From NCBI GenBank assembly GCA_010093605.1, contig MU004191.1, forward strand, positions 1,844,816 to 1,908,815: a stretch of 64,000 nt of DNA, given 5' to 3'. Positions 29,558 to 64,000 of this stretch are shown here, one piece after another. The DNA comes from Lophium mytilinum (taxonomy: Eukaryota). Each line of letters begins with the position of its first letter. The first letter of the stretch is position 1. Both the position numbers and the translations under genes were made by a program. The notes beneath the pieces were generated by a model, which was not told where the DNA came from, made no database searches, and saw only the letters and a program-made list of their open reading frames with translations.

Positions 29558-32500
29558 ATGAGCGGCGGAACGCTGCCTGTCAAACACGACAACACTCCCC
29601 ACAATCACGTCGATGGCGCCCTCAACCCGCCACCGCCCACCGACGAGCCCGCCGCCGACACCCCCGAGACTCATACAAATGGCTGCCGCAGGGCTGGCGA
29701 CGACGTGGCGACGCCCGTCAATGGCGACGAGGGGGGCGTTGCGGAGCAGAGGCCGGCCAAGAAGCGCAAGCTGGATGACCTCACGACGCGGCCGCGCTCC
29801 ATCTCGCGCGCCGTGTCGCCGCCCTGGAAGTCGTCCGTCGTCGATGGGCCGACTACTGTCATCGTCGACGGCAAGCGGAAGTCGACTCGATTCAATCCCC
29901 TCACCCCCGAGGCCGCGCCTGAGCCTGTGAAGCGGCCGACACGCGCCCAAGCAAGCAAGCCCGTCAATGTCAATGGCAGCGCGGGCAAGCAGAATGGCCA
30001 CCGTGTTGCCTCGACGCCGCTGCCGACCAAGATCAGCAAGACGTACGGTTCTCTGCGCAAGACGCCCTCCGCTGCCTCCCTCAAGGCCACCCCCCAGAGC
30101 CCCTCCCACCGCCCGCGCAAGGCCTCCGACGCCCACACCACACCTTCACTCCCCAACGGAGACGCCGCGCCCGTCAAGAGAGGACCAGGCCGGCCCCGCA
30201 AGTATCCTCTACCAGCTACGCCCGAAGTCAAGAAGAAGAAGCCGCGACCTCACCGTGCAAGCGACGCCTCCGAGCCCGCGACCCCCAACGGCTTTCACGA
30301 CGACTCCCAGGATGATATGCCTCCTCCGTCAGGTCCGACACCCCGACTAAAGCTGAAGCTCAAGACTCCCGACCCCATCATGCGGCACCCCGGGCACACT
30401 CCACAACCCAAGTTTGCCTCACTGGCTGACTTTCTCGAGCACGACGACCCACTCGCAGACGAGGACCTGGGCACATCTAACCAGTACTTGTACCCCCGCA
30501 CCGAGAAACAGATCCAACGCGAGGTGGATGTGCGTTTGCGCATTCTGGAAGCTGCCGAGCACGGAGTCTTGAGCCGAGAACGATCCAAGGTCTGGCTATC
30601 CGAACCCGCCAAGGAACCGCCCCAAGTCTATGGCCAATACGAATATGTCGTCGCACACGCTCTACACTTTGGGAAGCTGCTGAAGAGAGAGAAGGAGAAC
30701 CACAAGCGGCTGGCGAAGCGACTGGCACAGGAAGCTGTGGAAAAATGGAGCAAGAGGTTCAAGAAGGTATCCAAGGAGGAGCTCCACCGAGAGGAGCTCA
30801 AGGCCAACAAGATCCGAGCCAAACAGTTGATCACCGACCTGCAGCACTCATGGAAGATGGCCAAGATGGAGGTTGACCAAGCTCGAATCGCGCGATGGCA
30901 AGAGGAGCAGGATCGACAGGGCAAAGAGGTTATGGAGAGCATGGTCGAGCAGGCGAAGGCGGTTCTGGGCAAAGCTCGACTGGAAAATGCTGGCTCCGTA
31001 GCCGTCAGCGAAGACGAGGATACCGAAGACGGGGATACCCGCATAGAGTCGACTGACGAAGAAGACCACGTCCTGTCTGACTCTGGGGATGATGAGGAGG
31101 ATGATGGTCGAGATGATGATCAGAATCTAACTGATGAGCAGTTGCATGAGAAATACAGGGAGCTGCCGAATCTGCCTTCTGACGACGATGAGGAGGTGGA
31201 GGATAAGATCAGAGGCCACGAGATTGAATCTGGAGCCGACGAGGACGAGGACGACCAGACGTCTAGGTTCGAACAAGATGACGATGGCACACAAGACGTT
31301 GATGACGCATCGGAAATGGACCTCGTCGAGGACAAGATCCCCCTGGAGGAACCCGAGGACCTTGACGGACCGACTAGCCCTGGAACACCTAGGACCACTA
31401 TTGGCAACTACTCCATCGATGGCGGAAACGAAGACAACGAAATCGACTACTCCAATGTTGTGTTGGATGAGGTTGGCGACGCCTTGTTAGAATCATCGGA
31501 CGAAGGCACATCGGAAGAAGGCACATCGGACGACGATAGTGGCTCTGAAGTGACCGGCTACGAGGACGAGTTCGACGACGAAGACGAATCAGAAGAGCAA
31601 TCCAATCCCCTCTTCCAGCTCTTTTCCTCTACTGAAATTGCCAGGATCAAGAAGGCCAACCAAGCCGCCCTCCAGGCTAAAATAGTGGAAGCCCCTGCTG
31701 CAAACATACTGGATGAGGACGAAGACCCTTCTAAGCCTCAAGACAATGCCGACATTCCGAATGGTATGAACGGATACCACGAGACAGTGAACGCCTCCGC
31801 GGAAGAGGCATCACAGTCTCCACTCCAGAACGGTCACTATGCAGAATCCGATCATGTGCAATCGCCACTGGAAGAACACAGAAGTGTTTCAACTTCCGAA
31901 AACCACGAAAAAACAAACAGCACCCACTCAGAAGCGGATGGCGAAGTGGAGGAGATGGATATCGATCCCCCTCAACAAAACCAAGTATCTACAGGGGTTT
32001 CCCGAGCACCCTCGACAGATGCCAGAGTAGAGATACCGACAGTATTACTGAGAGGCACACTTCGAGACTATCAACACGCTGGTCTGGATTGGCTCGCGAA
32101 GCTTCACGGTGGCCACTCCAACGGCATCCTCGCAGACGAGATGGGTCTTGGGAAGACGATTCAGACGATTTCTCTGCTTGCTCATCTTGCCGTCAAAGAA
32201 AAGAATTGGGGTCCTCATCTGATAGTCGTGCCTACTAGTGTTATGCTGAACTGGGAAATGGAGTTCAAAAAATGGTGCCCAGGATTCAAGATCTTGACAT
32301 ACTATGGCGACATCAAAGAGCGACAAAACATGCGTAAAGGATGGAGAAATCAAGACTTGTACAACGTTATCATAACCTCGTATCAGCTGATTATACAGGA
32401 TGAACAGGCATTCAAGATGCGACATTGGGAGTATCTCATCCTGGACGAAGCTCACAACATCAAGAATTTCAAGACTCGACGATGGCAGACCCTCCTAGGA

Positions 32501-45087: not shown

Positions 45088-46059
45088 NNNNNNNNNNNNN
45101 NNNNNNNNNNNNNNNNNNNNNNNNNNNNNNNNNNNNNNNNNNNNNNNNNNNNNNNNNNNNNNNNNNNNNNNNNNNNNNNNNNNNNNNNNNNNNNNNNNNN
45201 NNNNNNNNNNNNNNNNNNNNNNNNNNNNNNNNNNNNNNNNNNNNNNNNNNNNNNNNNNNNNNNNNNNNNNNNNNNNNNNNNNNNNNNNNNNNNNNNNNNN
45301 NNNNNNNNNNNNNNNNNNNNNNNNNNNNNNNNNNNNNNNNNNNNNNNNNNNNNNNNNNNGCATTAAATAAAATATATAAAGTAAAGGGTAGAATATAGTT
45401 TATATAACGTTTATAGATAAAGTAATTAATAGGGCTACCGTAGAAAGCCTTCCTGCTAGGGCTCTTCCCTAGCAACCTTAACCGAGTAGCAGTATCTATA
45501 AGGGGTGTTAAAACGGGTTAGGCAGAGTAAGCCCTATAATAAGAATATTAACAAATCCTTATTTTTAACTAATTATACTCCCTAACTACTTTCTACTTTT
45601 TAGCTCTATATTCTAAACTATTATCCCCCTTACTACTATACCTAGTAGTTAGTATAGAACGCCCTTAAAAGTACTAGAATAAAGAAGAGTAAAAAGCAGC
45701 TAAATTATATTTAATAGTAGATTTAAACCAACGCAAGAGAGATAAAAAGAAGAGGGCTATAGACTAAATAGCTGCAGTAGAAGAGGCTAGTAAGCCTACT
45801 TCTACTTCTATTCTAGATCCGTTTCTAATTATCTTTAAAAACCCTAGAGGTCTTTCTAGTATAAACATTAGGGCCCCTTATCCTACCCACCCTGCGCCTA
45901 CGCCCTTTTAACAACTAATTATACCTTAGAAGCCTTTAGAGAAAACTATTATATAACTTATAATTAGTATATCTTTTATAATCTTCTAGTATTTATAGTT
46001 AGGTTCTAATAAACTTAAGTAGAACCCGTCTTAATAAAAGAATTATTACCTTCTACCTC

Positions 46060-46360: not shown

Positions 46361-47929
46361 AAGTTAAAAGCGGCCTAATATATACCTAAAATTTAAAGTA
46401 ATATAGAATTAATAGAAGCTATAGAGTAAAATTAGAGTAATAGTAGTAAGTATACTATTATATAGACTATTAAGGGAGCAGCAGTTAAAGAAAAAGAAGA
46501 AGCGGCTAAAGAAAGCGAAGTAAATAAAGAAGTAGCCTAAGTAGATAAAGAAGTAGAAGAGGCAGTATTAGAGTTGCTATTACCTATATCTTCCGCGTTA
46601 TCTTCTTATATACCTGCGTTACTACCACCTCTAAATACTAGAGAGGTATTACCCTCTCTATTACTACCTTCTAGTGTAGGGACACCTTAGTAAGCCGCAA
46701 ATAATAATAATAGAGCTCCGGGCTAAGTTCTACCCGCTATACGCTATCTCTATAAAGTGTTTCTTAAACCTATAGCTATACTATATATATATACAGGCGT
46801 ATATACTATTCTTACCCTCTAGAATACTCTATAGATAGCTATAATACTACACGCAAGTTTACGCGCTTAATAAACTATAGCAGCTCCTACTCCTATATAA
46901 CTAGAACTAATAATATAACGCTAAATACTAGCCCTTATTACTATATTACTACTTTATATACTTATGTAAATAACTAATAAAGAGATTATAGTAGAATTAT
47001 TCTTAGCGCAATAAAATAAGGCCGTAGAAGTGCTCTCTAGAATAGACGCTACGGAATAAATAGATAAGAAGGAAATGCTAGCTAATATAAGTTAGTTTAT
47101 ACAACTAGCGTATAATAATAGTTAGGTTTAGATAGAGTAGTACGCTGCCTTATTATCTCTCCGCCTAACGCTAGTAACTAAGGTTATAGAAGAGGAATTT
47201 ACCTAATTTAAGAATAAGGTAGAAGCAGGTGCAGATATAGATAAGGTATTAAATAATAGAGTTAAAGAGGGTAGAGAAGGTATATATACGCAAGGATAGT
47301 AAGATACTATAGATAAATTACCGGGTTTACTTAATAAAGTTACGCTAGAGAATTAAGGCAGTAGGGTAGATAATATAGCCTTAAATAGTAAAGGCAATAG
47401 TAAGATTATAGATAAAGTTATAGATAAGATAGACCCTAATAGGTAAGTATTATAAGCCCTATAGTTTATATAAAGCTAATATACGTAGGTATAATAATCT
47501 ATTAGTAAATACTCTATATATAGTAANNNNNNNNNNTTAGAAGTCTAGTATACTTACTATATATCTTAACTCTTTCTATTTAGATAATATAGTAGCTAAT
47601 ATTATAATATAGCAAGTAACTATATAATAGTTCCTTAAAGCAGATCCCTTAGCTAAGTTACTAGCTTTCTTCTAGCTTAGAATCTTTCCTTCTAATAAGA
47701 GCCTATTACAGCTAATACAGCCTTCTATTTAATAAGCCAACTAGAGCTATTATAGAGAGAGGATAATCCTAACAACTTTAATAATATCCTATAGAAATTA
47801 ATATTAAGCAGAGAAACTAGTAATATAGAAACTCTAAGGCTTAGTTTTATAAGGTCTAAAGCTAGCTTTATAGCGAATAAAGAGATTAAAATCCGGCAAG
47901 TATATAATATTAATAGCATTATTATTAGC

Positions 47930-50300
47930 ATCTCTACTTTAGCGGCCTATAATTTATACTTCTTACTATTTCTATAACTATCCTTTCTCTAAAGTATTAC
48001 TTAAAACTAATATATTATAATACGCGGCTATAAGCTCTATATAATAAAGCAGCTTTACATAGAGTATAGATATAAGTATTAATTTAAAACTTATATATTT
48101 TTCCCCTAGATATTAACACTAAATAAGTAGAAGGGTAGTACTTTGCATCTACTAGATATAATATAAGCAGCTTAGCTTAATAATATTATCTTACCTATAG
48201 TAAAGTATACTCTAATATCTAATAAGTAGTAGTATATACTATACAGTTTTAATATTATATAGAGTAAAGCAAGCGTTAAGAAAGAAAAATATATAATATT
48301 ATCTAGAGACTCTTATATTAATACTAAGTATATAATTCTATAGTATTAACTCTAAGAATTCTAGAACTAAGTTCTTTATAATGTAGAAAACTTTATAGAA
48401 ATAGATACTATACCTAAAGATTTATTTAAAGAAGTATTCCTAGTAGTCTTAGGTTATAATCTAAAAATAGTATATAAGTCCTTAAGTATAATTTAAAGTA
48501 GAAATTAGCTACTACGTACTTTAACTACTACTTTTAATAAAAACCTAATTAATATACTAGATAAGGGGATATAGGTTAACTATAGATATAAAGATATCCT
48601 AACTACTAATTAGCTAGATACCGGGGTTACCCTTCTACATAAAACTAGCTATAACAACTACTAGGCCACTTACTTCTATAATAGTGGAAAAGAAAAGATT
48701 TATATAATATTATACCCCTACTATCTTACCTAGGGCGCGTTATCTCTAATAGTAGAGCTCTAAGCAGGCAACTATAGCCGTATTAGTAGTATAGCATATA
48801 ATAAAATCTATAATAGTAATAAGATTATACTTAAGTTACCTATTAAGAATATTACGCCCTTTTATAATACTTAACTAGAAGCTCTTGCGTTCTTAACTAA
48901 AATAATTAAGTAGTAGTTTAAAGCGGCAGGTAGCTCTAAAGGATTATTAAAAAGAAAATAGCTTTAGAATAGTCTTACTACTATTCTCTAACGCCACTAT
49001 ACTATACTCTAGAGAGATAGATACTTATTCTATAGGGTTTAAACTAAGTTCTAAGTACTTCTTACTATACTTAAGCAACTTAAAGAAAGCGTAAGTCCTA
49101 AATTTACTATAAAGGATAGGCTAGATAATAGTAGTAAGCCTTATTACCCCTACTAGGTTCTTTCTATAAAAGAAGTTAATACCTTTACTATTGTAAACCT
49201 TAATCGCTAGGTATTCCTTTTCCAGGTACTATCTCTTTAGATTACCCCCGGGCGTAATACTAGGCATGTAGCAATACTAGATAAATAGCTAGTAAATAGT
49301 TATTTAGCATTTCTTTATATCCGCCTTACATAAATTACTACTAGATATAGTAATTCTACTTAATTATCTATACTATAGAAAAAAGAGTAGATAAATTAAA
49401 AAGACCCCTAGAATCCTGTAATCTTATATAGCCTTAGGTTATTAGACTTCCTTAAAAAGTATAGCATAGCTTAGCTAAAGTTAGAGTACTTAGATTAGAT
49501 AATAACGCCCCTATAACTTAGTCCTTAAGGCGTTAATTAACTGCAAGCCGGCCTTAGAAATTAATTCTAAGCTATATTTACTAAAGCTTAGATCTAGGTA
49601 TCTCTTACTAGGGAGAATATAGAGATGCGGTATCTATAGTATAGCATTACAGCATAGTACACGCTAGCTATTTAACGTAAAAATAGAACTAAAGTATAAA
49701 AAGATTAGTAATTAGTACCGCTATAGATAGGTAAGGCAGCTGCGCTTATTATTAAGGCATACTATACTAATATATATAAGCTTCTAAGTAGATAATACAT
49801 AGAAGAAGATAGAAATACTAAGATATAATAGAAGAGTAAAGAACTACGCAACTAATTTCTTAAGAGTATTTTAAATAGATCTATAGTTGCGCTTTATCCT
49901 AATATACTTATAAAGCTATATAGAAAGTTAGAACTTATAGTAAGCTACGCCTATATGCGGAATGTAGCTAGAAATAGTAATATAAATTATCTAAGGCACT
50001 TAACTAGACGCTAAATTAATTAAGTCTAGCCGCTATTTAATATTACGGATCTAGCTGCAGAAACTTAAAAATAAAATAATAGTCCCTTCCGCATAAAATT
50101 GCAAAGATTAAATGCAATAATTAGAAACAAAGCGTTACTAAAAACGGTAGAATAATTTCTTAATAATTTATAAGTAAAAGCCGCCTTATTACTCTAGATT
50201 CTTCTAAGATACAATAATAATAAAATTTTAACTACGCGTTAAGCTAAATAAAACAACTCTAAAGATATATAAGATAATATTAGGGGAAGAGATATAATTA
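47930..50300 (+). pseudogene. RIP-inactivated large protein of unknown family (motifs WxDxGxEDxP, GGxxYNKxYNxxK, SYGxRxExR)
   Basis: Manual de-RIP gives FLQSITQNQHIVIRG, TYVFFP, VFLVVSGHDLK, WVDYGYEDIP (48572), GVTLLHK, GGVAYNKIYN..K (48785), PF...LEALAF and SYGVxTEFxV (49028). An acidic N-terminal part may extend back to ~46980. Confidence 0.55.
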
Positions 50301-53300
50301 TAAATATATAGTAGATCTATATGCAACTATTAAATAGCTACTACTATAAGGTAGCCTAACTAAGCTAATATATTAAAGAATAGGCTTAAGGGGGGGTAGT
50401 TAACCTTAGCATAGACGTAGTTGCAAAGGAAGTATAGAATATAACCTAGGGAAGCCCAGGAAAGTTAAAGACAATAATAATAGAGGATAATATTATAGGC
50501 CCTAGAGGTTAAGTTAATCTAAAATATATCTAGCTTAGGTTTAAGCACTATATACTAAATAGCCCAAGGGCTTATTTAGGCAGAATTCTAATAATTAAAG
50601 AATTCTAGAATTATTTAGCAATATAAAAGAAGCAAGAGAGGAATATAAGTAGTTAGTTATTAGATAAAGAGTATAAGTATAAAGAGAGTTTAGGTAACTA
50701 TAGCTTAGAAATAGAGGACTTAGAGGACTTAGGGTAAGAGGTCTAGAAGAATAAGGCTTAAGTAGAAGAGTTTTAAGAAGTATATAGATTTAAGCGTTAA
50801 TAGGTAGACTAGTAGGGGCGGCGTTATAAAGAAGAATTATTAATAAGAGAGGTAGTAAAGTATTTAGTATAAGATATAAAGGGCGTTAGTAGAAAGGCTT
50901 CTAGCTAGGCTCTTATATAGTACGCAAATACTTATCTAGTAGGTGTATAGTAGTAATATATATAAGAAGAGAGGTAATAATAGGCGTACTTAATATAAGT
51001 AGTAAAGGGCCCTAGTAGAAAGGCTTTCTAGCAAGACCCTTATACTATAGGTAAATAGTTATACAACAACGCGCAATATTCTATTAACCTATCTTAGCGC
51101 AGTACTGTATTACTAGAACTAGGCGATATATAGCGTAGTATTATAGATTAACCGTAAACATTTATATATTAGCGAAATTAAGTAAAACGCTAATATATTT
51201 ATACCTGTAATATTTTAACCTTATATAATATATAGCCATTATATTAACCTTAAGAGTTAACTTAAGTAGTTTACTATTAAAGGCTTAGCGTCTTAGCAGC
51301 CGGCGGCTATTAGCCCGGCCGCCCATAAACTTATCCACCGCCTAGCAGCTTTAACTTTCTTACTTTTATACTAATCTCTCCTTCTATACTACCGCACCCC
51401 CATTACTTCTACTTATCTAGCTACCTGCGGAATAGTTGCGCGCTAGTTTCTTATTTACTAGATAATAGTTAGCAGCTTTCTAGCTATATTAGAGCCGCAA
51501 TTAGCTAGTTTTAGGCGTTCTTTTAGCTAGCGGTTAAGCCTTTTAGTAAGTTTACTATCTAGCAGGTAAAATTAAGTTACGTTATAGCTAATTCTGCTAA
51601 TAGGTTTATTCTATTGCAATTTCTCTAAGAGTAGAGTAAGGTAAGCGTATTATAAGAATTATTATAGAAAGGCTTCCTGCTAGAGCCCTTTACTAGTCTT
51701 AGTAGATTAGTCTACCTTAATTTTAAAGATGCGGCGGCAGGAAATATTAAGAAAATAATAATACTAAAAATACCCAGTATAGTGCATAGGGTCTTAGTAG
51801 AAAGCCTTTCTACTAGGGCCCTTTACCTGCCTTCTTTCTTCTATTATTTAAGATAAGCTAATATATTAATAGGCTAGCTATAAATACCTTAAGCAACGGG
51901 GACCCTAGTAAGGTAGTAGTAAAGGTTGCATCCCTATATATATTACCTATAACTAACCTAGTAGATAGCTATAAGAAATAATCTACTTCTTCTAAAGTAC
52001 TAGAAGATTTAAATTCTACCTCTCTACTAGTTACTAAATTAGGGGTTAATGCCTATGTTAATTTAAAGCGCAATTAGCCGGCCACTGCAATAAATCTAGA
52101 GACGCTTGCATTAGTAAATAGCAAAGTAGTTTATCTAGATAGCGATAACTATAGTAATAACTCTAATATCCCTAAGAACTCTAATAAAGAGTAAGAAAAG
52201 CTTTAAGCGCTAGTTACTAGCAGTAGGAAAGATAAAAAGTTAGAGAAGTTATAGGCCTTAGTAAATACGCTATATGCTAGTAGAATAAAGTTAGCTAAGC
52301 TTTATAGTTAAATAAAAGTAGAACTTAAAGTAATTCTAGCTAAGCCTAATTTCTAAGTAATTTAGAATAAGTATAAGGATAGGTATTTAGACCTAAAGCG
52401 CGCCGTATACAGTTAGAATTAAGGGGCTAGTTTTACTACTATTCTAAACGCTTTTAAGACTAGCGAGTTGCATAATCTATAGTAATATACTACTCCTTAG
52501 CCTAAGATAGATAACTATAAACCCGTAGATTAGGTAGCTTAATTTATTAGTTAATGCTTTAATTACTACCAGAAGCGGTTTAGTGGGTTTTTGCACAACC
52601 GCGCTAATATTACTAATAATAAAGCGCTTAGAATCTTCTTTAAATTAAAGAAAAATATAGAATTTAAGAGTAGCCCGTCTTAAGCTAGTAGGACCGCCTA
52701 TACTAAGAACTAAATTAAGATATAGAATGTTCTTTAAAAAATAAAGCTTAGTCTAGTACCGGCACCTAAGACCCCGGCCAAAACTATTACTTATAGTAGT
52801 AAGAATATTAATAGGAAGCCTTTCTATTAAGGCCCTTCTAGGCCTCCCTGTTAGCAGTCGCCCTCTTATTTTACTAAGAAGAAACTCGCGGCTATTAACA
52901 TAGAGGTTAACGTAGACAACCCTATCTAGGAGTTATCTAAAGAGGAAATTACTATAAACCTAGTTAATAAGAAGAAAGGTAACGTTAATATTACTAGCGC
53001 TAAGTATATTACCGGCACTATAAAATAGAAGCTTAAGTTAGTAATTATGCATGCTAAGCGCACTAGAGTAATAATTAACTAGAACTCGTTAAAGTTTTAA
53101 TATAACGCATATTGGGTAATTAGATAGATAGTAGGAGATTTTATATATACTATTAAATAGCACCTAAATATGCGCGCTGTAGATTTAAATAAGAATAAGT
53201 ACGCTAATCTAGATAGTATTAAATATGCCTAAGATATAGAGGCTAATATAAGGGCTACCGCTATTAATATAAAGAATATTATCCTCTTTACTATACTAAC

Positions 53301-53449
53301 CGCAGTAGATCTTACAACGTAGAGTACACTCCGCCTTCTAATAACTAATAAAGCCTATTAGCTAGATAACCTTAAAGAAGTAATAAAGGCCCTACGCATT
53401 TATAACTATTGGAAACCCCGCCTTATTATAATAAATAGTAATATTTACT

Positions 53450-55560
53450 TAAGGTAGTAGTAGATTACCGGGGCTTACTATATATACTATATTATATAGA
53501 AAGGCTTTCTTAGTAGGGCTTTAATTACAGATAAGGTTAGTATTAGAAAGATATTTTTAATAGCTACCCTTATTAGATATATAAGCAATTTCTCTTTAAA
53601 GGGTATTAATAGAAAGCCTTTCTACTACCCCCCTAATAGTTTCTCTTAGCATCTACTAATTTAATTATAGCTTATTACTAAGCGCTAGCGCAAAGTTATA
53701 GATAAGAAAGACCCCGGGCTAGTAAAGCCCTTTTTTTTTCTTATGCCTCCCGTTTTAGTATACTAAATAGTAAATAAACTTATAAAGTTTAGTTCTAAAC
53801 TTAAGCTCTATATCTATTTATTAAAGGGCTAAGTTACTTTCTATAGCGCTATATTTCTACATAATACCTTAACTAGAAACTATTCCTTATTTAATACTAA
53901 AAATAAGGTAAATGCTAAGAGCATTGTAATCGCCAGCTATTAGGTAATAGCTAGTCGGCACGGTCCCTAGCCCGCATTAAAGTAGTATAGCAATAATAAT
54001 CTTACTAAGCTAAAGAACTAGGTTAAATATCGCCTAAGCTCTACCTAGCCCGGTTTCTTAAGTAGCTATTTTAACGTCTAATTTATAGATAAGTGCTAGC
54101 TTATTAAAAGTAACTAAGTAAACCTCCACCTAACCGCGTTATAGCTTTACTTAGACTTTACTATACTCTATAGTAGGACCCTACTATATATAGGTATTAC
54201 TAATATGCCTACTTATATATCTTTTATAGAACTAAGAGATAAGTATTTATAATTCTGCACATACCGCTTAAAACCTAGTAAAGCTAAGTTTATTCCAGGT
54301 ACTAATAATCCGTTTAAGCTTCCTAATAACTATTTAGGTGTAATTTTCTAGTATACACGCAAGGCTTTTAAAAATTTTATTCTACCTTTATTTAACCTGT
54401 AAGTTATTATATAAAGGGCCCTAGTAAAAAGGCTTCTAGCTAGGGCCCTTATCTCTTCTCTTATTTACTTTAATTTTTTAATATTTCTCTAGGATTATAT
54501 AGGGGCTTTATTTACGCTTAATTTTTAGTAAGTATATAATTACTCGCTTATACCCTTCTATATACCTAAATAATTCTACTAATCCTGCCACCTAAATTAG
54601 AGGATTACTTCCGCGGTTAGTTACGCGAGTAATTAAGCTATAGCCTATAAAACTAGGCTATATTATCTATACTAATAAATTACTAAGCTACCTTAAGTTA
54701 TTAATAGTTTCTACTAAGAACTGTGTAGGCTAGCGCACCTATATATTTAATATATGCTCTATATATGCTCTTAACCTTATAAGTACTGCGCTATTTTTAG
54801 TCTACTCTAAGCGCGCTATAATAGCATATCCGTAAGAGAAGGTCTTAGATTTAAAGGGTAATAAGATTAAGAACGGCCCAAAAATCATCCCTCTTAAGAA
54901 TAATAGCGGTTACTAGTTAAAGGAAATAGACGTTTTGCAAGGCATAATAAAGTAAATTACCCGGAATAAGAACGTCTAAACTAACCCTAATTAGAAAGAC
55001 TTTAAAGCAAAGTCCGCACCCTTTTATTATATTATCGCTCTTTTTATCCGTAATGCCCCTAAAGTAGCTACACTACTATACTATTTAGCTAATAACGTTA
55101 TTAAGCGTATAGAGAAGGTTATTATTTAGACTAACTACCTAAATAAGTAAATAATTCTTGCTAAGATTATTAACTATTATAAAATAGATGCTTATATACT
55201 AGCCTTTAATCTCTCTACTACTAACCGGGATAACTTTATCTTAGTGTTTAACAACCCCGACTCTAAAGTAAAGATTCTTATTACTAGTTACTAGGCTAAT
55301 AGAGCTAGGCTTAATCTATAGTCTACTTATTATAATATATATCTTTTTAACCCTGCAGGCTCTATTTAGATTAAGAAGCAGGTAATAGCGCGTTTCTATA
55401 GAATTAGCTAGAAGTTTACTATTATAGTAACCGCGTTCTTTATCTAGGACACATTTAATGCCTTTACTCTCTCGCGCTAGGTGTAGATAGCGCTTTCCGG
55501 TCTTACTACTGCGTTAAACACTAACTAGATTAAGGTAGAGGGGACCTCTAAGGAAAAGCT
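53450..55560 (+). pseudogene. RIP-inactivated SNF2-family helicase/ATPase (core domains; full gene likely longer)
   Basis: Observed SRALITDKVSIRKI de-RIPs to GGALIADEVGIGKT (~53512-53553). Then motif Ia (MPPVLVxQ), IVIASY..RHGP, DKC*>DECQ (54088), SRTL>SGTP (54172), APK, EKVII, RARLNL*>GAGLNLQ (55301) and QVIARFYRIS*>RIGQ (55379). Motifs are in correct order and differ only by G>A/C>T. Confidence 0.85.
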
Positions 55561-58500
55561 AACCCTAGATAGCTAGTATGCGTAGATAACCTATAATAAT
55601 AAGAGTATTGCACCCCGCCTTATTATAGGCAAAATAGATATTTTAAATATGCCGGTAGAATTATATATTAAGCGCTTTAACTCCCTATAAGATATTCTTA
55701 TATTTCTAATAACCCTTATGCAAGGTAATATAACTTTTTAGTCTAGTAGGTTTAGTAATAAGTTCTAAGAAAAATAAGCGTATAAATTTACTAAATTAGA
55801 ATTAGAAGAAGAGTAGAAGAAGGGTGTAAATAGAGCGCCTAAGAAACCGCGTATTAATAAGCTAGGTTTAAGGCTTAAGTATTATCCTGTAAGTAGTAAG
55901 TTCGCCCTTATAGGTTCTAGCGGGAAGGCTTTCTACTAGGGCCCTACTTACCTTTTTATACTTTGCTAATCCGTGTTTTATAGTAAAAGCTACCCTAAAG
56001 CTAAAGCTAAAGACACTAGAGTAATAAAATAGTAAAGCTTTAAAGTAGAAGCGCAAAGCTAGTACTATACTAGCGGCTGCTATTAAGAAGTATAAGCCTA
56101 ACCCTAAGTCTACTATTATAGTTAAAGACTTAGATTCTACTAAATCTAATATGCCTACCCCTATAAAGAGCACTACTAGAAAGGCTTATAGCCCTTTTAT
56201 CTATTAATATAGGCCGGAGCGTAACCCTTTATATTAAGTCCCCGCTGTTTTTAGTAATATAGACAGCAATAACTCTTTTAGTAGGCTAAATAGTAATAAC
56301 TCTAAAGGTAAAAAGTATAAGAATAATACTTTATTCCTTGCAAAGTATATAGGTAAGAATTTATTCTAGGGCCTTTTTAGAAAGCCTTTCTACTAGGGCC
56401 CTTTAGCATCGCCTATTATACTGCTTAAGTGCTAACTATTATAATAGCTTCTACTTCCGCCCATTAACCTACTTTAACTCTACCTTCTAGCCCTCTTAGT
56501 ACCTTTAATAGACGCCTTATTAGGACCTCTTCTATAGACTCTATTCTATTACCTAATATATAGAAGAAGAGGTAGCGTAGAGTTTCTACTATCTCCTTAT
56601 AGAATTCTATAGATAATCTAGTTTTTTATTTACTACTAAAAGCTAACATTAATATAGATAATAACTAGACTAAGAGTAATAAGTAGAATAAGAAGAATAT
56701 TAAAACCCCCGACGTTAATATAGAGAACGTCCCGTCTAAGACTAATAAGTAAAATGGGGGGTATCTTAATAATTACCCGGATTTTACTACTACGCTATCT
56801 AAAGTTGCCTTTAAGCGTAATAGCAACTACAGTAGTAACTTAAATAACCCGCCGGAATTTATAGAAGAGGCCTTGTAGCTAACCTTAAAAACTATATCCT
56901 CTAGTAATACTAATAAGGGTTAGAAGCGCTAAGGCGCAAAAAAGAAGCCTACTATAAAGAAGGATAAAGTAGCTAAGAAAGACCCTATATCTAAATTCCT
57001 TATATATTGTCCGTACAAGTATATAATAAAGAAAGAGATTACTAAGTAGCGCCCTTAGCGCGAAAGAAAGGCTACTAAGAAGAAAGCTACTGCGTAGAAG
57101 TCTATAAACTCTACTAGACTAAAAATAGACCTACGCAGGCGGAAGAATAATCCTAATATTAGCTAACCGCCCGCGGTATTAGGTATAGATACTAACCCTA
57201 ATAGTAAAGAGAATAGTAGTAAATTAGAGGGGACTAGTATAGTGCTGGAGAAGTCTAATAGTAAGGTATAACTAGTAGGGTTTTTATAGAAAGGCTTTCT
57301 ATAGGGGCCCTTACCCTACTTTTTAAATTTAGTTTAGTATCTCTTAATATCTTTTTTTTTTTCTTTCTAACAGTTCTAATTAGGACTACTTTTCTTGCTA
57401 TTAGTTTGCACCTACTTACTTAGTACTGCTAACTTTTTACTATCCTAATTTCTTACTTACGTTCTATCCTCTACCCCCTAATAGTTAGTACTACTCCGCA
57501 GTAGTAGTATACTTTATACCCTTAAAATCTCCTAGTTTATATTTAGCCTCTAGATAGCGGCTTACTTAACTATAGAATATAGCGTAATATTTACTACTAT
57601 AACTATGCCTTGCGTATCTTATGCATAATATAATATTTATTTTATTTATCTATATTATAGAGGGCGGTCTCATCCACCGTAGTTTATGTAGTTAGAAAGG
57701 GTAATTACATTCTAATGCTGCTCTATTATATCTATACTATTAGCATGTACTTTCTATCTTTTTTATAGTAAAGAATCTGCTATTATATACCCTGTAATTT
57801 AACCCTTTTTACTAATATTAGTTATATAGCTAGGCTAAGTTCTCTCTATAGACTCTATCTATTAATACACTATATATAACTTTATTCTACCTATAGTTCC
57901 CTAAAGCGTATATTATTATATAATGCCTAAACTAACTAGAAGAAGAATTATTTATATATATTATTATTAAGTCTTTAGCGTACTAGGCGGCGGAAGGTAA
58001 TTTAGGTATTACAGTTATACTTTCTAGTTTATTAGCAATATATTTAGACCTGCTTATTATTAGTAAGAATAGTAATTCTTAAAGGGTTATAGTCTTACCG
58101 TTTATTACTTTTAATATAACTTTCCTTCTTCTTATAGTTATAAATAGTCTCTATATTATAAATAGAACTGCTCTTTTATTCTAGTATTTTCCTTTACTTC
58201 TATTCTTATAGCCATCTTAATAAGCGCTTTAGCCGTATAAGCTTCCTTCTTATAATAGAATCTAGAGTAGTATTTATAACCTCGCGCCTAGATAGAGTAT
58301 TAGGCGTAGTAAGAGAAGAAGCTAACTACTCTATTAGGATATATATATTGGGTAGACGTAGATATATCTACCCCTGCTAAATATTATCCTTAGCGTTTAG
58401 AGTTACTATGCTGCTGCGCGTTAACCTTAGTATACCGGGCTATATTTTATATACTTTAGCCTAGTTTAGAGTTGCAGCCGTCTCTATATTAGGTTAGGCC

Positions 58501-60668
58501 GCTTCTTATCTTATAAATATCCACCAGAACGCTCTAGAAAGAATATATATAGTATACTAATTAAAACTTACATATAGTATTATACGTAGGCTGCTACTAT
58601 ACTATAAGGGGTAGGTAGTAGTTAGAAAAAGGTTTAATGCGCTAGTTTCTATTAATCTTAGTATATTACGTGCTAACCTCTTATATTATATCTATACTTA
58701 TAATTAACCTTTAGAGGTTAACTTTATATACTATATATAAATAGCAGCTCTAAGAGTTTTATTTTATTACTATACTATACGTATATTTTATCTTAGGCGG
58801 AACTAGTAGGTTCCTATAATATATAGTTTATATAACTATACCCTGCGTTGCTTTAGCGCCCGCCTAATTTACTCTTCCTCTCTTTTCTTACTTTTTTAGC
58901 TTATTTCTCTCTACACTATAGCTGCAGGTAAACTAACAGCTAGAACTAGCATAGGAGAGACTTTTAATTATATTTAAGGCACTTTAGAGAAATAGTTTAA
59001 CGGTATATAAAGTTTTAAAGCTAGTAGGCTATGGGAATACCTATATAACTAACTTAGAAGAGTAGTATACTAAGAATAGCACCGCCATAATAGGTATACT
59101 AATAGGCTCGGGTACTATTACTTAGAACCCTCTTCTTAACCCTAATATACCTAGTAATACTACAGATCTTACCGCATAAAATGCTAGAGAGGAGTTCTTA
59201 TTATTTATTTCTAAAATAACTTCTAAGCTAGCTAATATAGACTAACCCTATACAACTAAACCGCTTACCGCGGAGGATACTACTAACCCTACCTACATTT
59301 ATGCCTAGAGAGAAGCACTTCTTGCAACTATCTAGAATTAAAATAGAGGTTCCCTTTTTAGTAATAGCCTAGGCATGCCTACTAATACTACTCTTAATAT
59401 ATAGCCTACTATAACTAAGTCTTAAACTCTCTATAACTATGCTAACCCTCTATTCTAAGCTACTAGAGATAGCGCCCTACCTTCTAAGTCTAATATTAAT
59501 ATTAAGCCTAAACTAGCTAATAAAGTTAATATAAAGATTAAGCCTAGTATTAAGATTAAGCCCGGCCTTATAAGCAGCCTGGATACTATAACTTTTTTAA
59601 GGATAATTTTAAGGATAAGAAGCTTCTACGCTTATAGATTAATATAGAAGAGAAGAAGGTAAGGGCTATATAAATAAGGTTTAAGGCTATAGCTAGAGAG
59701 CGGAAGCGGTAGGGCCTAATCTACTTCTAAATTTAAACCTTAAATAGAAGTAGTAGCGCTTTAACCTATTTCTATCTCTACGCGCTCATTAGTAAACACC
59801 TAACTCTTTATTTAGCGCTGCTAGGCCCTTACTATTCCCTAACCTATCTTCTCCTTTAATAGTAACGCGTCCCTACTTTTCTAGAACTATACTCTAGCCC
59901 TCTACGCTATCTATATGGAAATCGTCTAATAGGCTTTACTCTTTTACTTTACCTTACTTTTATTTCCTTCTTTAATAGCTTTATCTCTACTCTTCTACTA
60001 TTAGTCTTATCTTTTTCTACTATAGCGGAGCCTCTAGACCTAACCCCTAGTAATAGTACTAGTTTACCCTTTACTACTATAGTAAAACCTAAAGATTTAT
60101 CTTCTATTACTACTACTACCGCGTTGCTAACTTGCAAGCTCTAAAATTATAGATATTGCAGGAAGAAAGCTACTCTAAGGTATAGTTACTATGCTAGCAT
60201 TATCTACTACAATATAGATTATTAAAAGGCTAACTAGAAATTATCTAATACACCGCCTTCTTACATAAAGGTTATTACACCATAATAAGACTTCTATACT
60301 TTAGCTTAAATTTACTAATAGATAGTAAAGAGCGTAAAGTTTAGTAGATTATCTAAGGGGTAGAAATTAAAATAGGCTCTAGCTCTATTATATAACTATA
60401 AGCTATAATATACTTTACCTCTTATAAACTTAGCCCGCTATATATAAATATAGAGTCTCTCCTGCCTAAGCGCTAAAGAATAACTTCTAGTAGAGTAGCT
60501 GCAGCTACCCTAGCTTATATAGATTAAACTAGCACTCTACCTTAGCCTTCTTAGGCTAGCCTTTAACCTTATATATATACTAGCATAGGTAGTAATAATT
60601 ATTCTTATTCTTCCTTTATACTAAGCTTAATTACTACGCCGCTTTCTAGCTTTAAGAAGAAAAGAAAG

Positions 60669-61804
60669 ATAGAGGTTGTAGCTCCTCTTAGTAGTTAGAA
60701 CTCTACCCTACTATTAATAGATTAGATATATAGAGGCTCTATTCTAGGTACCCTAAGCATGCTATAAAACCTTCTTAGTATTAATAAGTTTAAGAAGTAG
60801 TATAAAGCCGCCGTTACCGCCGCTAGAGCCTAAGCCTAATCTACTCTCTAACCTATTCCTATCTCTATATGCTTATTAGTAAATACCTAGCTCTTTATCT
60901 AGCGCTGCTAGGCCCTTACTATCCCCTAACCTATCTTCTTATTTAATAGCAACACCTTTCTACTCTTCTAGAACTATACTCTAACCCTCTATACTGCCGG
61001 CTTTCCCTACTCTCTTACTACTACTAGCCCCTTTACCTTTAAGAAAGAAGCTAAAGAAGCCGCCTCTACTCTTAGCCTTACCCTCCTCTTCTCTCTTAAA
61101 GCCTTAGGTATAGTCTCTACCCCTAGTAAAACTAAAAAATGTACTCTAACTCTAACTTTTACTACTACTACCCCTAAGAAACCCTAGAAAAACTTTACTA
61201 GTATTCTTATAGAATTCTACTAAGCCTCTAAAATTTCTATTCTAACCTTTACTAAGTTTAAAACCGGCACCTACTTCTCTACTAAGCTATCGCTAGCCTT
61301 ATACCGCCCGGAGGACGCCCTCTTTAGTAGCCGCGCTATACTCTACCTATTAAAGAAAGCGGCTTATATAGCTATAGTAAGAGAGGTAGTACTCTAGCTA
61401 TATATAGGGATAGCTACCCGCTATATATAAGCCCGTGTTTAGAAAGAAGTAGTAGAAGATAGTAGAGGGTTCTAAAAACGCTGCAGTGTAGCTGCCGGGT
61501 AGTATAGTAGCGCAGGTGCTAGCACTAGCAAGCAAGCTAGGGCTACTATAGCTGGAGTATTAGTAGGCGGCGCTAAGTACGCTAGTGCCGGGGCTATCTA
61601 TAGTAAGTAGTTTATTCCCGGGGAGTAGAGTAGGTAGAGAGAATAGAGTAGTAGCAACGGCAAGGTATATAGTTAGAAAGAAGGCGGTAAGGAAAAAGTA
61701 TGCGCAGTTAATAGGAATAGAGTTAGAAGAAGTATTAGAGAGGAGGAAGGGGGTGTTAGAAAAGGTATTAGAGAAGGGGAAAAGAGAGGTAGAGATAAGG
61801 GAGG
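60669..61804 (+). pseudogene. RIP-inactivated protein with three double-stranded-RNA-binding domains, copy 1
   Basis: De-RIP reading: NTQLFIQRCQALAIPQPIFSF...PFTSKKEAKEAAS..GL; ENFTSILMEF.Q....PTFTEF...FGG....PSKKAA.AAVAREVV.WL; AAQVLALASKLGL.QPEY...ARHVVGKKAAREKCAQL. Confidence 0.75.
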
Positions 61805-62953
61805 NNNNNNNNNNTATAAAGATTAAGCCTAGTATTAAGATTAAGCCCGGCCTTATAAGTAGCCTAGATACTATAAGTTTTTTAAGAATAATTCTAAGAA
61901 TAAGAAGCTTCTGCGCTTGCGGATTAATATAGAAGAGAAGAAGGCAAGAGCTATATAAATAAGGTTTAAGGCTATAGCTAGAGAGTAGAAGTAGTAGGGC
62001 CTAATCTACTTTTAAATTTAAACCTTAGATAGGAGTAGTAGCGCTCTAATCTATCCCTATCTCTACGCGCTTATTAGCAAATACCTAACTCTTTATCTAG
62101 CGCTACTAGGCCCTCGCTATCTCCTAACCTATTTTCTTCTTTAATAGCAACGCGTTTCTACTCTTCTAGAACTATACTCTAGCTCTCTACGCCGCCTATG
62201 CAGAAATTATCTAATAGGCTTTACTCTTTTACTTTACCTTACTCTTATTTTCTTCTTTAATAGCTTTATCTCTACTCTTCTACTATTAGTCTTATCTTCT
62301 TCTACTATAGTAGAGCCTCTAGACTTAACTTCTAGTAATAGTACTAGTTTACCCTTTACTACTATAGTAAAATCTAAAGATTTATCTTCTATTACTACTA
62401 CTACTGCGTTACTAACTTATAAGCCCTAAAATTATAGATATTATAGAAAGAAAGCTACTCTAAGATATAGTTACTGCGCCAGCATTATCTACTATAATGC
62501 GGATTATTAAAAGGCTAACTAGAAATTATTTAATACGCCGCCTTCTTACATAAAGGTTATTGCACTATAATAAGACTTCTATACTTTAGCTTAAATTTAC
62601 TAATAGATAGCGAAGAGTGTAAAGTTTAGCAGATTATCTAAGGGGTAGAAATTAAAACGGGCTCTAGCTCTATTATGTAACTATAAGCTATAATATACTT
62701 TACCTCTTATAAACTTAGCCCGCTACGCATAAATATAGAGTTTCTTCTATCTAAGCACTAAAGAATAACTTCTAGTAGAGTAGCTGCAGCTACCCTAGCT
62801 TATATAGATTAAACTAGCACCCTACCTTAGCCTTTTTAGGCTAGCCTTTAACCTTATATATATACTAGCGTAGGCAGTAATAATTATTCTTATTCTTTCT
62901 TTATACTAAGCTTAATTACTATACTACTTTCTAGCTTTAAGAAGAAAAGAAAG

Positions 62954-64000
62954 ATAAAGGTTGCAGCTCCTCTTAGCAGTTAGAACTCTACCCCGCTATT
63001 AATAGATTAGACACGTAGAGGCTCTATTCTAGGTGCCCTAAGCGTGCTATAAAACCTTCTTAGTATTAATAAGTTTAAGAAGTAGTATAAAGCTACTATT
63101 ACCGCCGCTAGAGCCTAAGCCTAATCTACTCTCTAACCTATTTCTATCTCTATACACTTATTAGTAAATACCTAGCTCTTTATCTAGCGCTGCTAGGCCC
63201 TTACTATCCTCTAACCTATCTTCTTATTTAATGGCAATACCTCCCTACCCTTTTAAAACTGCACTCTAACTCTCTACGCCGCTAGCTTTCTCTACTTTCT
63301 TACTACTACTAGCCCCTTTACCTCTAAGAAAGAAGCTAAAGAAGCCGCCTCTACTTTTAGCCTTACCCTTCTCTCCTCTCTTAAAGCCTTAGGTATAGTC
63401 TCCACCCCTAGTAAAACTAAAAAATATACTCTAACCCTAACTTCTACTACTACTACCTCTAAGAAACCCTAGAAAAACTTTACTAGTATTCTTATAGAAT
63501 TCTACTAAGCCTCTAAAATTTCTATTCTAACCTTTACTAAGTTTAAAGCTAGCACCTACTTCTCTACTAAGCTATTACTAGCCTTACACCGCCTAGAGGA
63601 CGCCCTCTTTAGCGGCCGCGCTATACTCTACCTATTAAAGAAAGCGGCTTATATAGCTATAGTAAGGAAGATAGTACTCTAGCTATATATAGAGATAGCT
63701 ACCTACTATATATAAGCCCGCGTCTATAAAGAAGTAGTAGAAAATAGTAGAGAGTTCTAAGAATACTATAGTATAGCTACTAGGCAGTATAGCAGCGCAG
63801 GTGCTAGCGCTAGCAAGCAAGCTAGGGCTACTGCAGCTAGAGTATTAGTAGGCGGCGCTAAGTGCGCTAGCGCCGGGGCTATCTATAGTAAGTAGTTTAT
63901 TCCCGGGGAGTAGAGTAGGTAGAGAGAATAGGGTAGTAGTAGCAGTAAGATATATAGTTAGAAAGAAGGCGGTAAGAAAGAAGTATGCGCAGTTAATAGT
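62954..64000 (+). pseudogene. RIP-inactivated triple-dsRBD protein, copy 2 (cut by window end)
   Basis: Same reading as copy 1 at +2285. It retains some ancestral bases lost in copy 1 (aatggcaa, aactgcact, agcggccgc). Confidence 0.75.

What the first reader, a model, noticed from the sequence alone, without database searches (positions are those of the whole stretch)
50880..57311. 35-bp palindrome repeatedly located just downstream of 5' splice donors (introner-like hairpin introns)
Seen: the consensus is a 17-bp inverted repeat around one base and occurs in both orientations (AGAAAGGCTTTCT and AGAAAGCCTTTCT). Many copies start 3-22 nt after a GTAAG-type donor: GTAAGC 51641, GTAAGA 52799, ATAAGC 53581 (RIPed), GTAAGT 54399, GTAAGT 55889, GTAAGA 56353, GTAAGG 57261. 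The copies at 53600 and 54415 lie in stretches interrupting the helicase coding sequence. Residual G/C bases suggest an ancestral CCCTGGCAGAAAG arm. Established: Dothideomycetes have hairpin-forming introner-like elements. Inference: either a local burst of intron gain from a mini-element, or operator/recognition sites for an element-encoded dimeric protein placed in introns. No copy was seen in the 42 kb gene-rich part.
Basis: partly seen in the sequence, partly recalled or inferred. Interest (0 to 1): 0.85.

Follow-up and report, generated by a model that had tools for sequence, protein, structure and literature searches.

The report
Hairpin palindrome inside one gene's introns
A 37-base DNA palindrome sits once, just after the splice start, in almost every short intron of a mutation-killed fungal helicase gene, and a distant relative of that gene carries the same palindrome core in the matching intron, so it is an old companion of this gene family whose job is still unknown.

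Summary
The AT-rich, RIP-mutated block (42-64 kb) holds 11 clear copies and 2 degenerate copies of a 37-nt palindrome. The 42 kb gene-rich part holds none.

- **Donor link:** 9 of 11 copies lie 2-22 nt after a [G/A]TAAG on the + strand, against 1.5 expected (0 of 20,000 permutations).
- **Introns:** homology and frame logic place 6-8 copies in short introns (88-113 nt) of a dead SNF2-type helicase gene. Two copies lie in exons.
- **What is shared:** only the palindrome. In an alphabet that RIP cannot change, the palindromes are 88% alike and the intron tails 56% (null 50%).
- **Intron ages:** intron I4 is old. A metagenome relative (L001) has an intron at the same codon, 91 against 90 nt, holding a palindrome with the same core in un-RIPed form. 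L001 lacks intron I5.

Best reading (0.4): a private hairpin module of this SNF2 repeat family. It lodges between splice donor and branch point and probably acts as an RNA stem-loop. It spread by copying the hairpin, at times with more of the intron. Rivals are a selfish mini-insertion, DNA recognition sites, and an introner-like burst.

This scan had already noted the same palindrome in other copies of this repeat in the same genome.

The parts
51729..57460 (+). RIP-killed SNF2-type helicase gene: putative ATG at 51729, last short exon after 57373. The ATPase core spans 53275-55771.
   Evidence: phmmer of 54872-55651, with stops read as X, finds 133 relatives, best E 7e-31. An HMM of 35 homologues aligns positions 5-223 to 53725-54387 and 227-551 to 54488-55567. 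The homologues carry PF00176 and PF00271. With six introns spliced the frame holds 100 stops in 1720 codons, against 245 in 1910 unspliced.
51641..51728 (+). I1: putative 88-nt intron in the 5' UTR, donor GTAAGC. Palindrome at 51654-51690, centre G.
   Evidence: Splice signals only. It ends directly before the ATG at 51729.
51782..51872 (+). I2: 91-nt intron, donor GTGCAT. Palindrome at 51787-51823, centre C.
   Evidence: Leaving it unspliced raises the stops from 100 to 297. A 16-bp hairpin survives at -22.7 kcal/mol, z -4.45. Its tail resembles that of I8.
52799..52915 (+). I3: donor GTAAGA abuts the palindrome at 52801-52837 (centre C). The acceptor is uncertain: 52903 (105 nt) or 52915 (117 nt) keeps the frame.
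   Evidence: The 59-nt and 80-nt versions break the frame. The in-frame options are listed. It may instead be an in-frame exonic copy.
53486..53522 (+). Exonic copy (core 53497-53510, one mismatch to the 15-mer) that codes the linker between the Q motif and motif I (…KGFLSRALITDKVSIRK).
   Evidence: It aligns without gaps with L001 and P0030 from LRWWQ to GLGKT, 35 residues in both.
53581..53670 (+). I4: 90-nt intron, phase 0, RIPed donor ATAAGC. Palindrome at 53599-53635, centre C. This intron position is old.
   Evidence: A 27-residue gap appears against P0030. The next exon starts LITKRxRK, matching L001's CITERVRK after its 91-nt intron at the same codon.
54399..54492 (+). I5: 94-nt intron, donor GTAAGT. 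Palindrome at 54414-54450, centre G. This position is absent from relatives.
   Evidence: The HMM runs 223 to 227 across it with a frame change of +1. L001 residues 192-199 are contiguous there. Unspliced, the stops rise to 207.
55896..55983 (+). I6: 88-nt intron, the second of two GTAAGT donors. Palindrome at 55910-55946, centre G.
   Evidence: Frame logic: unspliced gives 161 stops, donor 55889 gives 116, donor 55896 gives 100.
56166..56202 (+). Degenerate copy with an internal deletion in the right arm (centre 56184), lying in the apparent coding frame.
   Evidence: 84% like the 50875 copy over 31 nt (family D7). The frame stays open through it.
56353..56447 (+). I8: 95-nt intron, donor GTAAGA, branch-like TGCTAAC. 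Palindrome at 56367-56403, centre C.
   Evidence: The frame change fits: 100 stops spliced against 113 unspliced, which is modest support. The hairpin folds at -18.1 kcal/mol, z -2.76.
57261..57373 (+). I9: last putative intron, about 113 nt, donor GTAAGG. Palindrome at 57276-57312, centre G.
   Evidence: Splice signals only. The hairpin folds at -18.1 kcal/mol, z -3.24.
50879..51041 (+). U1 (50879-50915) and U2 (51005-51041): two upstream copies 126 nt apart. Each lies 10 nt after an ATAAG[AT], which may be a RIPed donor. U2 is followed by CTATTAAC and TCTTAG.
   Evidence: (families D3, D16).
45430..45466 (+). Far copy, centre C, with the less-mutated right arm CTTCCTGCTAGGG. It lies 70 nt after the assembly gap.

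Best explanation
The palindrome is a private hairpin module of an SNF2-helicase-bearing fungal repeat that RIP has since killed. In its un-RIPed form it read about AAGGGCCCTAGCAGGAAG-S-CTTCCTGCTAGGGCCCTT.

What is shown:
- It sits once per intron, in the stretch between the 5' splice site and the branch point, usually starting 13-18 nt after the donor.
- It is the only part the introns share.
- It is older than this genome's repeat, because a distant relative's gene has the same core in the orthologous intron, twice upstream and once in an exon, with different outer arms that still pair.

What is inferred:
- In the transcript it folds into a 16-18 bp stem-loop just beyond the region the splicing machinery holds at the donor.
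- There it organises or regulates removal of each intron.
- It spread from intron to intron by copying of the hairpin alone, or of hairpin-bearing introns whose other sequence has since decayed.
- It stayed only where splicing and coding tolerate it.

It does not by itself make introns.
For: 1. Non-random tie to donors on one strand: 9 of 11 copies against 1.5 expected, 0 of 20,000 permutations; mirror strand 2 of 11.
2. Real introns. I5 is shown by an HMM of 35 homologues. I4 is shown by P0030 and L001. Leaving I2, I5 or I6 unspliced raises the stops from 100 to 297, 207 and 161. I4, I8 and I9 give 103, 113 and 105, which is weak or no frame support.
3. No palindrome-free intron was detected in the homology-mapped core. 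The 5 of 13 GTAAG not beside a palindrome lie in aligned or open-frame sequence, or (51546) in unassigned upstream sequence.
4. In the purine/pyrimidine alphabet, which RIP cannot alter, palindromes are 0.878 alike. Tails are 0.557-0.575 and spacers 0.495, against a null of 0.50.
5. Hairpins survive in 4 of 6 copies folded: -18.1 to -22.7 kcal/mol, z -2.8 to -4.5.
6. Relative L001 has its intron at the same codon, 91 nt against 90 nt, with the palindrome AATTTTCAGGAAG-G-CTTCCTAAAAATT. The RIP-degenerate 15-mer of our core matches L001 once, in that intron (0.0125 expected per 8.4 kb). It matches 0 times in 42 kb of gene-rich window and 0 times in L002-L004.
7. L001 has 4 core hits within 2 mismatches: two upstream, one intronic, one exonic.
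8. Intron sizes equal an ordinary intron plus the palindrome. L001's introns are 61 nt without and 91 nt with the palindrome. Ours are 88-95 nt in 6 of 8; I3 is 105 or 117 nt and I9 is 113 nt.
Against: - No RNA evidence of any kind.
- In L001 the hairpin lies 42 nt from the donor and just before the branch site, so the fixed offset from the donor is not conserved.
- L001's two other SNF2 introns lack it, so it is not needed for splicing in this family.
- Two copies here and one in L001 lie in exons without changing protein length, which a splicing role does not explain.
- Upstream copies (U1, U2, L001 at 1340 and 2395) may lie outside the transcript, which would favour a DNA-level role.
- Exactly one copy per intron, at one offset, in introns of one size, would also follow from whole-intron copying.
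- Introns without a palindrome are hard to see in RIPed sequence outside 53.7-55.6 kb, so 'every intron' may be overstated.
Confidence: 0.4

Rival explanations
1. Selfish mini-palindrome. This would be a tiny non-autonomous insertion, like a MITE or a bacterial REP sequence, with no use to the gene. It entered existing introns and non-coding DNA of this repeat in either orientation. It survives only where insertion does not break coding or splice signals.
For: - Only the palindrome is shared among introns.
- Central base G in 7 copies and C in 6 looks like random orientation.
- Intron size equals an ordinary intron plus the palindrome.
- Each lineage has its own outer arms, as after bursts from a lineage-specific master copy.
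- The position inside the orthologous intron differs between L001 and this window.
Against: - Eight introns with exactly one copy each, none seen with two, is unlikely under random hits: at most about 3e-4 for a Poisson process (my arithmetic).
- The roughly 0.8 kb of introns hold 8 copies. The other 12 kb or so of the AT-rich block hold 3, and those also follow donor-like words.
- A DNA insertion has no way to find a donor 13-18 nt away.
- No clear target-site duplication is visible. TA flanks are uninformative in this AT-rich DNA.
- At 37 nt it is far below known MITE sizes (recalled).
Confidence: 0.22
2. DNA-level recognition sites. The palindromes would be binding or cruciform sites for a dimeric or structure-specific protein, either encoded by the element or by the host. 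They are placed upstream and in introns because coding sequence cannot hold them.
For: - Near-perfect two-fold symmetry.
- The core GGAAG-S-CTTCC is conserved between distant relatives while the outer arms differ.
- Copies lie upstream of the gene in both lineages.
- Exonic copies that keep protein length look like sites fitted into tolerant sequence.
Against: - It gives no reason for the strand-specific tie to splice donors.
- Outer arms stay complementary in both lineages, which a protein-binding motif alone does not need.
- No DNA-binding protein is identified. Pfam finds nothing in the RIPed frames next door.
Confidence: 0.18
3. Introner-like burst inside one gene. An old hairpin-bearing intron, I4, was copied as a whole intron to new places in the same gene and its neighbours. 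This resembles same-gene intron duplication or introner-like elements. The parts outside the hairpin later decayed.
For: - I4 is old and carries the hairpin in both lineages.
- I5 is absent from L001 and from 35 homologue reading frames, and it is seamless.
- L001's long N- and C-terminal exons have no introns where ours has I3, I6, I8 and I9.
- Lengths are uniform at 88-95 nt in 6 of 8 introns, the offset is fixed, and there is one hairpin each.
- The I2 and I8 tails are alike: z 3.96, top of 55 pairs.
Against: - Tails and spacers are otherwise at chance in the RIP-proof alphabet, so the hairpin would need long selective upkeep.
- The centre base is split 7 G to 6 C.
- The homologue reading frames come from prokaryote-style gene calls, which favour intron-free genes, so absence of I5 is weak evidence.
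- Intron loss in relatives explains the same pattern.
Confidence: 0.18

Closest known systems
Introner-like elements (ILEs) of Dothideomycetes. Source: Collemare et al. [quoted passage not shown] 2015, PMC4457414, abstract only; van der Burgt 2012 recalled.
   Same: Spliceosomal introns in related copies. They are longer than ordinary introns, have a stable predicted structure and carry normal splice signals.
   Different: ILEs are near-identical over the whole intron and occur in tens to hundreds of unrelated genes. Here only a 37-nt core is shared and the copies seen are confined to one repeat. One carrier intron is old, and copies also lie in exons and upstream.
Same-gene intron duplications (SGD), as classed in PMC3609843 (section read).
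   Same: Related introns within one gene. The I2-I8 pair may be such a duplicate, including a few exon bases before the donor.
   Different: SGDs are described as ordinary in length and folding energy, and half come from segmental duplication that includes exons. Here most introns share no tail sequence.
Symmetrical sister introns and stwintrons of Hypoxylaceae (Fekete et al. 2021, PMC8469720, abstract and section 3.5 read).
   Same: Fungal introns of about 93 nt built around a central palindrome that may form double-stranded RNA. No flanking duplications. No Rfam family, which I also found here.
   Different: There the inverted repeat is terminal, 45-55 nt, and spans the intron. The central palindrome is WTTCTAGAAA, and the introns are spread over many genes. 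Here the palindrome is internal and off-centre, has another core, and sits in one gene cluster.
X3X3R8 repeat family of Stagonospora (Parastagonospora) nodorum (Hane and Oliver 2010, PMC3017866, passages found by word search).
   Same: A RIP-degraded, several-copy repeat that carries Rad5/SNF2-like helicase genes beside unknown reading frames.
   Different: Whether this window belongs to that family was not tested. The words 'palindrom' and 'hairpin' occur 0 times in that paper's main text.
Transposon-derived introners of algae and other eukaryotes, and bacterial REP/RAYT palindromes (both recalled, not read here).
   Same: Short inverted-repeat units in many copies. Introners give introns in either orientation.
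   Different: No target-site duplication, no whole-intron identity and no genome-wide spread is shown here. No enzyme that could move the palindrome is identified.

Membership tests
Introner-like elements (ILE) | Near-identical sequence over the whole intron | tested here: not met
   RIP-proof (R/Y) identity is 0.878 for palindromes, 0.557-0.575 for tails and 0.495 for spacers, against a null of 0.50. Only I2-I8 tails are alike: z 3.96, 1 of 55 pairs.
Introner-like elements (ILE) | Many copies in unrelated genes | tested here: inconclusive
   0 copies in the 42 kb gene-rich part of the window. The whole genome is not held.
Introner-like elements (ILE) | Longer than ordinary introns, with a stable predicted structure | tested here: met
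   88-95 nt here, against 61 nt for L001's palindrome-free first intron. Hairpins fold at -18.1 to -22.7 kcal/mol in 4 of 6 copies.
Introner-like elements (ILE) | Newly gained intron positions | tested here: inconclusive
   I5 is absent from L001 and from 35 homologue reading frames. I4 is shared with L001, and 31 of 35 reading frames start after the I4 position.
Hypoxylaceae symmetrical sister (stw)introns | Terminal inverted repeats of 45-55 nt spanning the intron | tested here: not met
   The palindrome is internal, 37-43 nt, centred 33-36 nt from the 5' end in most of the 88-95 nt introns. Donor pairing appears in only some folds.
Hypoxylaceae symmetrical sister (stw)introns | Central palindrome WTTCTAGAAA | tested here: not met
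   The core here is GGAAG-S-CTTCC, which RIP turned into GAAAG-S-CTTTC.
MITE or transposon-derived introner | Target-site duplication flanking terminal inverted repeats | tested here: inconclusive
   The flanks are AT-rich. TA on both sides in some copies cannot be told from an extension of the palindrome.
SNF2 family (the carrier gene) | SNF2-related ATPase domain plus Helicase_C | tested here: met
   Pfam finds 0 families directly in the RIPed frames. phmmer and a 35-sequence HMM align both lobes. The homologues P0002, P0007, P0030, P0135 and L001 carry PF00176 and/or PF00271.

The most novel reading that the evidence does not exclude
The palindrome is the recognition hairpin of a DNA-processing enzyme carried by the same repeat. 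If so, this would be a eukaryotic counterpart of hairpin-guided systems such as bacterial REP/RAYT or IS200/IS605, with introns serving as safe harbours for the enzyme's sites. The core conserved between distant relatives would be what the enzyme reads. The lineage-specific arms would have co-evolved with it.
Probability: 0.06. Interest if true: 0.9.

Novelty: new variant of a known kind. Interest (0 to 1): 0.6.

Why it matters
How new introns arise, and whether structured introns copy themselves, is an open question in fungi. This case separates two things that are usually confounded.

- The repeated unit is a hairpin, not an intron.
- It occupies both an ancient intron and an intron that relatives lack.
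- It has kept its core in two distant lineages of one gene family.

If the hairpin is functional, it is a conserved intronic RNA or DNA element tied to a helicase gene that behaves like a mobile repeat. If it is selfish, it is an unusually small and intron-specific mobile palindrome. Either way, intact relatives offer a direct test.

I found no paper describing it in two full-text searches. Hane and Oliver 2010 do not use either word.

Tried and rejected
- **Whole genome:** not held for this window, so no genome-wide scan was possible.
- **Sequencing runs:** no RNA holder listed.
- **Palindrome pattern searches:** the RIPed form gave 0 hits in metagenome contigs. I realised afterwards that this was the mutated form. 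The inferred un-RIPed core gave 0 hits in prokaryote genome contigs and 0 in viral contigs.
- **Relatives by protein:**
  - A 14-sequence alignment was too diverse to search with.
  - The 4-sequence alignment gave 3 metagenome loci, none in prokaryote genomes and one weak viral match, L004, which I did not pursue.
  - L002 and L003 cover only the C-terminal half and hold no palindrome.
  - A search for longer relatives of P0001 gave one weak hit.
- **Pfam on RIPed frames:** 0 families for 52801-55802 on the + strand and 0 for 47701-49802 in all six frames.
- **Rfam:** 0 families at gathering score in the window and L001.
- **Ideas dropped:**
  - That the unit is a longer palindrome with the donor mirrored as an ACTTAC-like word. 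This is seen only in I6 and I9, and CTTA is common in this DNA.
  - That the copy at 53504 lies in an intron. The gap-free alignment from LRWWQ to GLGKT shows it is exonic.
  - That I3 is 59 or 80 nt. Both lengths break the frame.
- **Script:** a first fuzzy-regex script timed out.

Full report
**Setting.** The window is fungal. It has about 50% G+C up to 42 kb. From 42 to 64 kb it is a 22-40% G+C block of the kind left by repeat-induced point mutation (RIP). An assembly gap of N lies at 45088-45359. No whole genome is held for the window.

**The observation.**
- The core 15-mer, allowing up to 2 mismatches, matches 9 times. Shuffles give 0.32 on average, and 0 of 100 reach 9.
- A score over the whole window that counts C-to-T and G-to-A changes as half matches finds 11 copies of the 37-mer scoring 29-35. 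One hit sits at noise level (24.0; maxima of 20 shuffles were 22.0-24.5). None lies in the first 42 kb.
- Two more degenerate copies have centres at 53504 and 56184.
- The central base is G in 7 copies and C in 6. For a palindrome, that base is all that 'orientation' can mean.
- Less-mutated copies (45430, 51654, 52801, 55910) show that the arm read CTAGCAGGAAG / CTTCCTGCTAG before RIP.

**Tie to donors.**
- GTAAG starts 2-22 nt before the 37-mer in 6 of 11 copies, against 0.42 expected.
- [GA]TAAG does so in 9 of 11 copies, against 1.5 expected.
- In both cases 0 of 20,000 random placements reach the observed count. On the opposite strand the count is 2 of 11.
- Of the 13 GTAAG in 50.8-57.4 kb, 8 stand beside palindromes. 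Of the other 5, four lie in aligned or open-frame sequence and one (51546) lies in unassigned sequence upstream of I1.

**The gene.**
- Pfam sees nothing in the RIPed frames.
- A full phmmer search with 54872-55651, stops read as X, finds 133 relatives, best E 7e-31.
- The relatives carry SNF2-rel_dom and/or Helicase_C.
- An HMM built from the 35 relatives of 560-730 residues aligns positions 5-223 to 53725-54387 in one frame. It aligns positions 227-551 to 54488-55567 in the next frame.

**The introns.**
- The HMM result shows that 54399-54492 (I5, 94 nt) is an intron that removes no coding sequence.
- P0030 and L001 show a second intron, I4 (53581-53670, 90 nt, phase 0, donor RIPed to ATAAGC), directly after motif I.
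- A model starting at ATG 51729 with six introns spliced gives 100 stops in 1720 codons, against 245 in 1910 unspliced.
- Leaving out I2, I5 or I6 raises the count to 297, 207 and 161.
- Leaving out I8, I9 or I4 gives 113, 105 and 103. That is weak support from frame alone; I4 rests on homology.
- I3 has a good donor. Its 59-nt and 80-nt versions break the frame, and only 105 or 117 nt fit.
- I1 and the upstream pair U1/U2 rest on splice-like signals only.

**Exonic copies.** The copy at 53504 is exonic. From LRWWQ (here LR***, three RIP-type stops) to GLGKT, both this gene and L001 have 35 residues with no gap. The copy at 56184 also lies in the open frame.

**What the introns share.**
- RIP makes only transitions, so it cannot change a purine/pyrimidine string.
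- In that alphabet the palindromes are 0.878 alike.
- The 3' tails are 0.557-0.575 alike and the donor-to-palindrome spacers 0.495. The null is 0.50.
- The repeated unit is therefore the palindrome, not the intron.
- One exception: the tails of I2 and I8 are alike (z 3.96, the top of 55 pairs, mean z 0.73), and so are a few bases before their donors.
- The palindrome starts 13-18 nt after the donor in 6 of 8 introns, and 6 of 8 introns are 88-95 nt long.
- As RNA, 4 of 6 copies tested still fold into 12-17 bp hairpins at -18.1 to -22.7 kcal/mol, z -2.8 to -4.5. Two have lost pairing.
- No Rfam family matches.

**A relative.**
- A search of metagenome contigs with a 4-protein alignment gave three loci. 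L002 and L003 cover only the C-terminal half.
- L001 (8.4 kb, 48.6% G+C) holds the whole gene, and its exons align colinearly with ours.
- It has an intron at exactly the I4 codon. The exons read GLGKTFQVAAYMLH | CITERVRK in L001 and SIRKIFLIATLIRY | LITKRxRK here. The intron is 91 nt long.
- That intron holds the palindrome AATTTTCAGGAAG-G-CTTCCTAAAAATT.
- Its core, CAGGAAGGCTTCCTA, is exactly what RIP would turn into our TAGAAAGGCTTTCTA.
- The RIP-degenerate 15-mer matches L001 once, at that place (0.0125 expected per contig). It matches 0 times in the 42 kb gene-rich part and 0 times in L002-L004.
- L001 has 4 core hits within 2 mismatches: at 1340 and 2395 upstream of the ATG, at 4263 in the intron, and at 5452 in an exon coding SEGFLKK. 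There are 0 such hits in the gene-rich 42 kb.
- Its outer arms (A/T runs) differ from ours (GGGCCC) but still pair.
- In L001 the hairpin lies 42 nt from the donor, just before the branch-like GTTAAC.
- L001's first intron (61 nt) and its third lack the palindrome.
- L001 has no intron at I5; its residues 192-199 are contiguous there.
- 31 of the 35 homologue reading frames start no more than 45 residues before the QW motif, that is, after the I4 position. This fits a widely kept interruption there, though contig ends could do the same.

**Reading.**
- The palindrome did not create I5. That intron's head and tail are not palindrome, and no exon sequence is missing.
- It is not a whole-intron repeat.
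- It is older than this repeat's death and is tied to this gene family.
- One copy per intron, at one offset and on the donor side, argues against random selfish insertion. It argues for either a role in the transcript or inheritance from a common hairpin intron.
- I favour (0.4) a hairpin module that acts as an RNA stem-loop between donor and branch point and spreads by copying.
- The rivals are a selfish mini-insertion (0.22), DNA recognition sites (0.18) and an intragenic introner-like burst seeded by I4 (0.18). These are partly about origin and partly about function, and they can overlap.
- The exonic, length-neutral copies in both lineages remain unexplained.

**Known relatives of the idea.**
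- ILEs are whole-intron near-identical copies in many unrelated genes, longer and more stably folded than ordinary introns (PMC3609843, section read).
- Same-gene duplications are ordinary in length and energy (same source).
- Hypoxylaceae sister introns of 93 nt are symmetric about TTTCTAGAAA, with terminal repeats of 45-55 nt (PMC8469720, abstract and section 3.5).
- A RIP-degraded repeat with Rad5/SNF2-like helicases is described in S. nodorum without any mention of a palindrome (PMC3017866, passages).
- Two full-text searches listed no paper on such a palindrome.

**Earlier notes of this scan.** They reported the same palindrome in other copies of this repeat in the same genome. They gave me the leads to the Fekete and the Hane and Oliver papers. 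My results on the relative, on the palindrome-only sharing and on the exonic copy agree with them and were obtained here independently.

Noticed in passing
window 45088-45359: A run of N, an assembly gap, inside the AT-rich block. The far palindrome copy starts 70 nt after it, so the link between 42-45 kb and the rest depends on scaffolding.
   Followed up: partly
window 59530-63283: A tandem duplication with a period of 2285 bp (families D1, D2, D8; 85-98% alike) in the RIPed block downstream of the helicase gene. It holds no palindrome copies.
   Followed up: no
window 31502-32551: An intact, ordinary SNF2 gene (…ILADEMGLGKTIQTISLL…) in the gene-rich part matched P0030 better than the dead copy did. 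It is a different, housekeeping-type family member.
   Followed up: no
L001 1493-1990: A foldback or terminal-inverted-repeat insertion of about 500 bp. Its arms of about 90 nt flank an AT-rich core. It sits between the two upstream palindrome copies of the relative's gene.
   Followed up: no
L001 5796-5798: A single in-frame stop where relatives have Q in the ADQV(I/V)KRKEK motif, so this relative may itself be a fresh pseudogene. L002 shows a frame change at the same motif.
   Followed up: no
window 53497-53510 and L001 5452-5464: In both lineages one copy of the palindrome core lies in coding sequence. It is read in the same frame as (E/K)GFL, at different places in the protein, and does not change protein length against homologues. 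This is unexplained.
   Followed up: partly
Pfam on all six frames, with stops read as X, found nothing, as it also found nothing for the RIPed helicase. The claim is neither confirmed nor refuted.
   Followed up: partly
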